Below, one piece after another: positions 6,865-6,942 of a stretch of DNA of 10,690 nt. Position numbers and translations under genes: made by a program. How positions within the stretch are numbered: position 1 is the first letter of the stretch; each line of letters opens with the position of its first letter. The stretch is from positions 1 to 10,690 of IMG/VR virus record IMGVR_UViG_2740892230_000009; one strand, 5' to 3'. The notes below the pieces were generated by a model. That model searched no databases. It worked only from the letters and a program-made list of their open reading frames with translations, and was not told the origin of the DNA. The stretch is from a virus (taxonomy: Duplodnaviria; Heunggongvirae; Uroviricota; Caudoviricetes).

Positions 6865-6942
6865 AGGAATATCCTTTTTCGTACTTTCAGTACGTATTAT
6901 GGTTGAACTGAAAGTTTTTGCAAGTGCTTTAGTATCGTACTC
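6865..6942. promoter_or_regulatory. OR region with candidate PR, PRM and operator palindromes
   Basis: PR on - strand: TTGCAA (6918-6923), 16-bp spacer, CATAAT (complement of 6896-6901). PRM on + strand: TAGTAT (6930-6935) 7 nt before the cI ATG with no SD. Palindromes CGTACTttcAGTACG (6880-6894), AACTgaaAGTT (6905-6915), AGTAtcgTACT (6931-6941). Confidence 0.5.

What the first reader, a model, noticed from the sequence alone, without database searches (positions are those of the whole stretch)
6865..6942. Compact OR switch with back-to-back promoters and a leaderless cI
The 78-bp cro-cI spacer holds a PR candidate with near-consensus hexamers and three palindromic candidate operators, one of which (6931-6941) overlaps the PRM -10 and ends 1 nt before the cI ATG. 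cI has no SD, so its mRNA is probably leaderless as in lambda. The half-site CGTACT recurs at 6880-6885 and 6936-6941.
Basis: partly seen in the sequence, partly recalled or inferred. Interest (0 to 1): 0.45.

Follow-up and report, generated by a model that had tools for sequence, protein, structure and literature searches.

The report
Phage 933W right operator switch

Summary
Window 6600-7700 is 100% identical to phage 933W and to more than 100 other Stx phages. The same region occurs in 427 of 5,426 complete E. coli genomes. The cro-cI spacer is the published 933W OR.

Three 15-bp repressor sites are present: OR1 6880-6894, OR2 6904-6918 and OR3 6936-6950. A degenerate form of the motif hits the window five times, against 0.48 expected. 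The other two hits form the two-site OL at 9985-10023.

Published Cappable-seq data from EDL933 place the cI start at window 6943, the A of the ATG, in 8 of 8 conditions. The cro start maps to 6888. So cI mRNA is leaderless, and PR and PRM fire divergently 55 bp apart.

It was wrong about OR3. The 11-bp palindrome 6931-6941 is not the operator. The real site shares its CGTACT half but runs rightward across the ATG. A leave-one-out matrix ranks the real site 4th and the palindrome about 8,000th of about 10,700. The palindrome is broken in Salmonella relatives, which keep the real site.

Verdict: already known, low interest.

The parts
6637..6864 (-). cro gene (75 aa, small HTH protein)
   Evidence: ORF list. 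Annotated as cro in AF125520. Pfam gives HTH_17 and HTH_23 above cut-off, and YdaS_toxin and P22_Cro below cut-off.
6872..6876 (-). Shine-Dalgarno of cro (AAGGA), 7 nt before the ATG
   Evidence: Anti-SD duplex energy -5.4 kcal/mol. Sequence checked.
6880..6894 (.). OR1, CGTACTTTCAGTACG, a perfect 6-3-6 palindrome. It is the tightest repressor site and covers the PR start (centre at +2).
   Evidence: Annotated oR1 in AF125520 and phi24B. Motif hit. Its T at position 3 fits the published tightest-binding variant. Geometry.
6888..6888 (-). PR transcription start (G), giving a 24-nt cro leader
   Evidence: Cappable-seq start at NZ_CP008957 1346320(+) in 8 of 8 conditions. Exact coordinate mapping.
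6896..6923 (-). PR promoter: -35 TTGCAA (6923-6918), 16-bp spacer, -10 CATAAT (6901-6896)
   Evidence: Promoter scan. Same span is annotated pR in AF125520. The start lies 8 nt past the -10. Both hexamers are kept in the relatives.
6904..6918 (.). OR2, TGAACTGAAAGTTTT. It lies in the PR spacer (centre -23) and over the PRM -35 (centre -32).
   Evidence: Annotated oR2. Motif hit. It is the only site with A at position 2, within a 4-bp A-tract, exactly as published.
6908..6935 (+). PRM promoter: weak -35 CTGAAA (6908-6913), 16-bp spacer, -10 TAGTAT (6930-6935)
   Evidence: Annotated pM in AF125520. The start lies 8 nt past the -10. The -10 varies among relatives as TAGTAT, TACTAT and TATAAT, always keeping TA..AT.
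6936..6950 (.). OR3, CGTACTCATGGTTCA. It is centred on the PRM start and the cI ATG, and repressor bound here shuts off PRM.
   Evidence: Annotated oR3 in AF125520 and OR3 in phi24B. Motif hit. Leave-one-out matrix rank 4 of 10,676.
6943..6943 (+). PRM transcription start, which is the A of the cI ATG (leaderless mRNA)
   Evidence: Cappable-seq start at NZ_CP008957 1346265(-) in 8 of 8 conditions; it is the only start listed for this gene. The CDS ends at 1346265. Mapping.
6943..7650 (+). cI repressor gene (235 aa; HTH_3 plus Peptidase_S24)
   Evidence: ORF list. Pfam. 100% identical to 933W cI.
9985..9999 (.). OL distal site, CGTACCAATAGTTCT (centre -43 of PL)
   Evidence: Motif hit. Half-site table. 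Geometry.
9999..10035 (+). PL promoter: -35 TTGATA, 17-bp spacer, -10 CATTAT (10022-10027), start at 10035
   Evidence: Sequence. Cappable-seq start at 1343173(-) in 8 of 8 conditions. The window is collinear with EDL933 without gaps here.
10009..10023 (.). OL proximal site, CGAACTATTGGTTCA, in the PL spacer (centre -19)
   Evidence: Motif hit. Half-site table. Geometry.

Best explanation
The region is the right operator (OR) of the imm933W immunity region. It is the bistable cI/Cro switch that decides between lysogeny and lytic growth, and hence Shiga-toxin expression.

- **Operators.** CI dimers recognise 15-bp sites that are symmetric about a central A/T pair. Each half-site has the form N-G-(A/T)-A-C-(T/C)-N.
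- **OR1** (6880-6894) starts just past the PR -10 and covers the PR start at 6888. **OR2** (6904-6918) fills the PR spacer. Occupying either site blocks PR, and so blocks cro and the downstream lytic genes.
- **PRM** fires in the opposite direction, 55 bp from the PR start. It begins at the A of the cI ATG (6943), so cI is translated from a leaderless mRNA with no Shine-Dalgarno.
- **OR3** (6936-6950) starts just past the PRM -10 and is centred on that start. At higher CI concentration it shuts off cI synthesis.
- **Published behaviour.** 933W CI does not bind cooperatively. The order of filling (relative Kd: OR1 1, OR2 13.6, OR3 26.4) follows intrinsic site affinity alone. PRM is first stimulated and then repressed within about a 4-fold range of CI. 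This keeps repressor levels low and makes the prophage easy to induce.
- **OL.** A two-site OL at 9985-10023 controls PL in the same way.

Shown here: the identity of the sequence, the five sites, the hexamers, the three transcription starts (from published data on identical sequence) and the lack of a Shine-Dalgarno.

Taken from the literature: CI binding, the affinities, and the activation and repression of PRM.

Inferred: that Cro uses the same sites, and that the two overlapping promoters exclude each other.
For: - 100% identity to AF125520 (933W) over 6600-7700, with oR1, oR2, oR3, pR and pM annotated at exactly these coordinates. The phi24B record agrees.
- The pattern RWACYNNNRGTWY hits the window five times, three in OR and two in OL. 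The expected number is 0.48, and none of 200 shuffles reached five.
- The ten half-sites reproduce every per-position statement in Bullwinkle et al. 2012: G at position 2 in 9 of 10, with the exception in OR2 inside a 4-bp A-tract; A-C at positions 4-5 in 10 of 10; T in 7 and C in 3 at position 6; and a central A/T.
- A matrix built without OR3 ranks 6936-6950 fourth. All five sites occupy the top five ranks.
- Cappable-seq starts map to window 6943 (cI), 6888 (cro) and 10035 (PL). Each appears in 8 of 8 conditions, and each lies exactly 8 nt past the predicted -10.
- No Shine-Dalgarno precedes cI.
- Relatives at 71-99% identity keep all three sites, both -10 hexamers and the shared TTGCAA.
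- Affinities, the lack of cooperativity and the PRM activation and repression come from PMC3317979, PMC5977221, PMC4848623 and PMC3202840.
Against: - The primary footprinting and primer-extension papers are not in the held library: Koudelka 2004, Tyler 2004, Bullwinkle & Koudelka 2011 and Plunkett 1999. The published site boundaries were therefore reconstructed from GenBank annotation and from the per-position statements of the 2012 paper, not read off a published figure.
- A second GenBank record, AP004402, annotates different 17-bp 'putative operators' and places PRM inside cI. That conflicts with the transcription-start data and the motif.
- OR2 is centred at -32 of PRM and covers its -35 hexamer. 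This is not the lambda geometry (-42), so how CI bound there activates PRM is not explained by analogy with lambda.
- Cappable-seq detects the PR and PL starts in lysogen cultures in all conditions. This is probably the spontaneously induced subpopulation, but that was not shown.
Confidence: 0.95

Rival explanations
1. One reading: the third operator is the 11-bp palindrome AGTATCGTACT (6931-6941). It would overlap the PRM -10 and end 1 nt before the cI ATG.
For: The palindrome exists, and the spacer is enriched in 4-3-4 palindromes (4 against 0.32 expected). It contains the true half-site CGTACT. A site over the -10 would also repress PRM.
Against: - The operators are 15 bp with invariant A-C at positions 4-5. 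The 15-mer centred on this palindrome (6929-6943) scores -15.4 bits, rank 8,082 of 10,676.
- The palindrome is lost non-compensatorily in SI5 and GE_vB_TR (ACTATCGAACT) and in MS2 LVA (ATAATTGAACT). In the same phages 6936-6950 stays a valid site.
- Two independent GenBank records start OR3 at 6936 and run it across the ATG.
- Its left arm AGTA is simply part of the -10 hexamer TAGTAT.
Confidence: 0.03
2. The AP004402 (Stx2 phage I) annotation: 17-bp operators at 6897-6913, 6928-6944 and 6963-6979, with PRM inside the annotated cI ORF (-35 at 6949-6954, -10 at 6971-6977). This would imply a downstream cI start.
For: It is deposited in a public record.
Against: - The only cI start detected is at 6943. 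None is listed near 6984.
- Those 17-mers do not carry the motif.
- The published residue numbers S41, K42 and K46 fit translation from the ATG at 6943.
Confidence: 0.01
3. The OR1 palindrome followed by a T-rich stretch is an intrinsic terminator on the plus strand, not a protein-binding site.
For: The terminator scan flags 6880-6894 plus TATTATGGTT.
Against: - The stem has only 6 bp (3 of them G-C) with a 3-nt loop, and the tail is interrupted.
- Two terminator-like hits were found against 0.5 expected in shuffles, so this is weak.
- The same 15-bp motif recurs at four other places that lack a T-tail.
- The site sits at PR +2, and repressor binding to it is published.
Confidence: 0.01

Closest known systems
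Phage 933W OR/PR/PRM (imm933W), GenBank AF125520 / NC_000924; Koudelka 2004, Tyler 2004, Bullwinkle & Koudelka 2011, Bullwinkle et al. 2012
   Same: The sequence is identical over cro-OR-cI. The three OR sites, the two OL sites and both promoters are the same. The window is simply another carrier of this immunity region.
   Different: Nothing differs within the finding. Outside it the window is mosaic. It is closest to phage TL-2011a from O103:H25 (99.8%), with a DnaB-type helicase split by an intein where 933W has a lambda-P-type gene. There is also one SNP 3 nt before the PL start.
Phage lambda OR (OR1-OR2-OR3, PR/PRM, leaderless cI)
   Same: Both have divergent cI (HTH plus S24 peptidase) and cro genes, three operators, and OR1-OR2 centres 24 bp apart. 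In both, PRM starts at the A of the cI AUG and no Shine-Dalgarno is present. In both, OR3 gives negative autoregulation.
   Different: - The spacer is 78 bp, against 100 bp in lambda.
- The sites are 15 bp, not 17 bp.
- The PR and PRM starts are 55 bp apart, against 83 bp in lambda (textbook value).
- All operators sit about 10-20 bp closer to the starts. OR1 is at +2 rather than -17 of PR. OR2 is at -32 rather than -42 of PRM. OR3 is at +1 rather than -19, and it extends into the cI coding sequence.
- OR2-OR3 centres are 32 bp apart, not 23 bp.
- There is no OR1-OR2 cooperativity and no OL3.
PaaR2/YdaS switch of cryptic prophage CP-933P (PMC8630535)
   Same: It is another cI/cro-like divergent pair in the same EHEC strain, with a short (97 bp) spacer. 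Its repressor mRNA was shown to be leaderless by 5'-RACE.
   Different: The proteins and operators are different, and it controls a toxin-antitoxin operon rather than phage development.

Membership tests
imm933W immunity region (phage 933W OR) | Nucleotide identity to the 933W cro-OR-cI segment | tested here: met
   100% over 1,101 bp to AF125520 and NC_000924. Exact string match to EDL933 NZ_CP008957.
imm933W immunity region (phage 933W OR) | Five natural 15-bp CI sites (three in OR, two in OL) with the published per-position composition | tested here: met
   Exactly five motif hits, 3 plus 2. Position counts match PMC3317979.
imm933W immunity region (phage 933W OR) | CI protein binds these sites in the order OR1, then OR2, then OR3, without cooperativity | not testable with these tools
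   Taken from the literature only.
Lambdoid cI/Cro genetic switch | Divergent genes for an HTH + S24-peptidase repressor and a small HTH Cro | tested here: met
   Pfam finds HTH_3 plus Peptidase_S24 in cI and HTH families in cro. Gene orientation.
Lambdoid cI/Cro genetic switch | Tripartite operator overlapping two divergent promoters, so that the outer sites each block one promoter | tested here: met
   OR1 is centred at +2 of PR and OR3 at +1 of PRM, and OR2 lies in the PR spacer.
Lambdoid cI/Cro genetic switch | Lambda-type activation geometry: OR2 centred near -42 of PRM, abutting the -35 | tested here: not met
   The OR2 centre is at -32 and the site covers the -35 hexamer. Lambda operator coordinates come, and the lambda PRM start is the textbook value. 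This lowers the claim 'same contact as lambda', not the claim 'is an OR switch'.
Leaderless mRNA (lambda cI type) | Transcription start coincides with the A of the start codon | tested here: met
   Published Cappable-seq start at 1346265(-), which is the last base of the CDS 1345558..1346265(-), in 8 of 8 conditions on identical sequence.
Leaderless mRNA (lambda cI type) | No Shine-Dalgarno upstream of the start codon | tested here: met
   Anti-SD duplex +0.6 kcal/mol, the weakest of 11 genes tested.
Leaderless mRNA (lambda cI type) | Protein is actually translated from that 5'-terminal AUG | not testable with these tools
   Indirect only. The published residue numbering (S41, K42, K46) fits Met1 at 6943, and the ATG and the first codons are kept in relatives.

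The most novel reading that the evidence does not exclude
With the cI start mapped to 6943, OR2 is centred at -32 of PRM. That is one helical turn closer than in lambda, and the site lies directly over the weak -35 hexamer CTGAAA.

Its two contacted half-site cores sit 4 and 5 bp from the hexamer centre (roughly 137 and 171 degrees around the helix). This puts them on roughly the opposite face of the DNA from sigma region 4.

933W CI might therefore stimulate PRM in one of two ways. It could use a lambda-cII-like mechanism, acting across the -35 from the opposite face. Or it could act largely by removing polymerase from the overlapping PR. Either would differ from the lambda cI-sigma4 contact made from -42.

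I could not check whether the primary papers already discuss this, because they are not held.
Probability: 0.25. Interest if true: 0.4.

Novelty: already known. Interest (0 to 1): 0.08.

Why it matters
This switch sets how easily Stx2 prophages induce, and therefore how much Shiga toxin EHEC strains release. That is why it has been studied in detail since 1999-2004.

The check adds three small things. It links public single-nucleotide transcription-start data to the operator map. It notes that the operator-to-promoter geometry is not lambda-like. It does not open a new question.

Tried and rejected
- I tried to read the primary papers: Tyler 2004 (PMC524894), Koudelka 2004 (PMC524892), Bullwinkle & Koudelka 2011 (PMC3133280) and Plunkett 1999 (PMC93574). 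None is held. The published site definitions were therefore rebuilt from GenBank features and from the 2012 PLoS One text.
- I searched for any paper stating that 933W cI is leaderless. The only relevant statement is an analogy with lambda in the phi24B paper, plus a demonstrated case in a different prophage. The Cappable-seq supplement supplied the direct evidence instead.
- I looked for other PRM hexamers that would restore a -42 geometry, namely TTGCAA at 6918-6923 with a -10 near 6939-6946. I rejected these. The -10 candidates match at most 3 of 6 positions, and the mapped start is at 6943.
- I considered a fourth operator using AGTAT(C) at 6931-6936 as its right half. Its left half, AAGTGCT, fails positions 2-5.
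- I considered the terminator-like call on OR1 and rejected it, as set out under the rival explanations.

Full report
**What is there.** The finding covers the 78-bp gap (6865-6942) between a leftward 75-aa HTH gene (6637-6864) and a rightward 235-aa gene (6943-7650). The second gene's product carries HTH_3 and Peptidase_S24 domains. Around them lie cII, an O-type replication gene, a DUF3024 gene, a eukaryote-like protein kinase and N. This is a lambdoid immunity region read in the reverse of the usual map orientation.

**Identity.** Window 6600-7700 is 100% identical to phage 933W (AF125520, NC_000924) and to dozens of Stx1 and Stx2 phages; 150 phage records match in total. The 211 bp around the spacer occur in 427 of 5,426 complete E. 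coli genomes. As a whole the window is closest to phage TL-2011a from an O103:H25 strain (99.8%). It is not 933W to the left of the immunity region.

The 933W record annotates these features, converted to window coordinates:
- oR1 at 6880-6894
- pR at 6896-6923
- oR2 at 6904-6918
- pM at 6908-6935
- oR3 at 6936-6950

The phi24B immunity record places OR1 at 6880-6894, OR2 from 6904 and OR3 from 6936. A third record, AP004402, has a different and evidently computational annotation.

**Checking the operators independently.** Bullwinkle et al. 2012 (PMC3317979) describe the 933W CI site as follows:
- It is 15 bp long and symmetric about a central base pair.
- There are five natural sites.
- Position 2 is G in every half-site except one in OR2, where the A is part of a 4-bp A-tract.
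- Positions 4-5 are invariantly A-C.
- Position 6 is T in 7 of 10 half-sites and C in 3.
- The central base pair is A/T.
- Position 3 is consensus A, but T binds more tightly.

I took the three annotated OR sites and two look-alikes upstream of N (9985-9999 and 10009-10023). Their ten half-sites reproduce every one of these statements exactly. The degenerate core RWACYNNNRGTWY hits the 10.7-kb window five times, at exactly those places. The expected number is 0.48, and none of 200 shuffles reached five.

A half-site matrix built without OR3 ranks 6936-6950 fourth of 10,676 15-mers. The five sites take the top five ranks.

The 11-bp palindrome AGTATCGTACT (6931-6941) is real as a string. It shares only the CGTACT half with the true site. 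The 15-mer centred on it scores -15.4 bits, rank 8,082. Its left arm is part of the PRM -10 hexamer TAGTAT.

In Salmonella phages SI5 and GE_vB_TR (about 89% identical) and MS2 LVA (about 72%), the palindrome is lost without compensation. In the same phages the 15-bp site across the ATG changes only at position 1 and by A/T swaps at position 3, both of which are tolerated. The real OR3 is therefore 6936-6950 and extends into codons 1-3 of cI.

**Promoters and transcription starts.** The only sigma-70-like match in the region is TTGCAA-16-CATAAT on the minus strand (6923-6896), matching 9 of 12 positions. This is the annotated pR. On the plus strand the annotated pM is CTGAAA-16-TAGTAT (6908-6935), a poor promoter.

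A published Cappable-seq study of EDL933 (PMC10469882, mapped to NZ_CP008957) gives single-nucleotide starts:
- For the repressor gene, whose CDS is 1345558..1346265 on the minus strand, the only start listed is 1346265, in all eight conditions.
- For cro, the start is 1346320(+) in all eight conditions.

Exact string matching places these at window 6943, the A of the cI ATG, and at 6888. The PL start 1343173(-) maps to window 10035. All three starts lie exactly 8 nt beyond the last base of the predicted -10 hexamers.

cI has no Shine-Dalgarno. Its anti-SD duplex energy is +0.6 kcal/mol, against -3.3 to -12.1 for ten other genes. I found no held paper that states this for 933W, but the data have been public since 2023.

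**How it works.**
- OR1 begins one base after the PR -10 and is centred at +2 of PR.
- OR2 fills the PR spacer, centred at -23.
- OR3 begins immediately after the PRM -10 and is centred at +1 of PRM.

Each outer operator therefore blocks one promoter by covering its start, in a nearly mirror-symmetric layout. The two promoters fire divergently from starts 55 bp apart. Their -35 regions cross over (6908-6913 and 6918-6923), so simultaneous occupancy by two polymerases is unlikely. That last point is an inference.

From the literature:
- CI binds OR1, OR2 and OR3 with relative dissociation constants of 1, 13.6 and 26.4, without cooperativity.
- PR is repressed.
- PRM is stimulated and then fully repressed with only about 4-fold more CI.
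- There is no OL3 and no role for looping.
- Repressor mRNA and protein are low in lysogens, which explains the high spontaneous induction of Stx prophages.

At OL, one site lies in the PL spacer (centre -19) and the other just upstream of the -35 (centre -43).

**Comparison with lambda.** Lambda has a 100-bp spacer and 17-bp operators centred at -19, -42 and -66 of PRM. All three lie outside the cI ORF (the PRM and PR starts are textbook values). In 933W the corresponding centres are +1, -32 and -56.

The lambda-defining feature 'OR2 abuts the -35 at -42' is therefore not met. OR2 covers the PRM -35, with its contacted bases roughly on the opposite helical face. This is the one aspect I could not find discussed in the papers available to me. 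It is offered as the most novel reading, with a low prior, because the primary papers may well cover it.

**Verdict.** The feature is the textbook-level, experimentally characterised OR of phage 933W, so it is already known and of low interest.

Noticed in passing
window 9357-9371: A sixth operator-like 15-mer, CGTACTAGATGTACT, lies inside the stk kinase gene. It is the next-best matrix score after the five known sites (11.6 bits). It carries an A at position 6' and a central G, both reported to weaken binding.
   Followed up: no
window 7564 and 7599 (3' end of cI): The Cappable-seq data list starts at EDL933 1345644 (7 of 8 conditions) and 1345609 (8 of 8), assigned to the DUF3024 gene downstream of cI. 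These point to internal promoters within cI for the L0084-L0083-stk genes. That fits the report that genes downstream of cI are expressed far above cI in phi24B lysogens.
   Followed up: partly
window 2487-4880 (minus strand): The replicative helicase gene is a DnaB-type protein (DnaB plus DnaB_C) interrupted by a LAGLIDADG homing-endonuclease/intein segment, at roughly residues 390-455 of 797. 933W itself has a lambda-P-type gene here. The window is therefore a mosaic, closest to phage TL-2011a.
   Followed up: partly
window 10032: A single-base difference from EDL933 (A in the window, G in EDL933) lies 3 nt upstream of the mapped PL start. Its effect on PL is unknown.
   Followed up: no
window 1038-1047, 1333-1342, 1652-1661, 2215-2224, 6172-6181: Five runs of exactly 10 N interrupt ORFs, including the cII-proximal region. 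They look like masking or assembly gaps, not biology.
   Followed up: no
window 38-586 and 1006-1260 (minus strand): Two ORFs share a near-identical N-terminal stretch (…LRNEAIRNNAIDAILSLPIDDKSPHEVH.KEPKRS…). The second is shorter and is interrupted by an N run. This looks like a partial duplication of a nin-region gene; neither ORF was scanned against a protein family library.
   Followed up: no
L007 (Salmonella phage MS2 LVA) 981-1052, aligned to window 6880-6950: This relative has a 1-bp insertion in the 4-bp stretch shared by the PR and PRM spacers, which changes both from 16 to 17 bp. It also has a consensus TATAAT PRM -10. Its repressor keeps the 933W-like N-terminal domain but has a different C-terminal domain.
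   Followed up: partly
window 6865-6875: A fourth 4-3-4 palindrome, AGGAATATCCT, abuts the cro ATG and overlaps the cro Shine-Dalgarno. It varies among relatives, so it is probably fortuitous.
   Followed up: partly
window 9788-9812: A GC-rich hairpin followed by a T-run (GCCCGGCCTCAGCGCCGGGTTTTCTTT) lies after the small ORF downstream of stk. It corresponds to the annotated tM terminator of the cI operon in AF125520.
   Followed up: no
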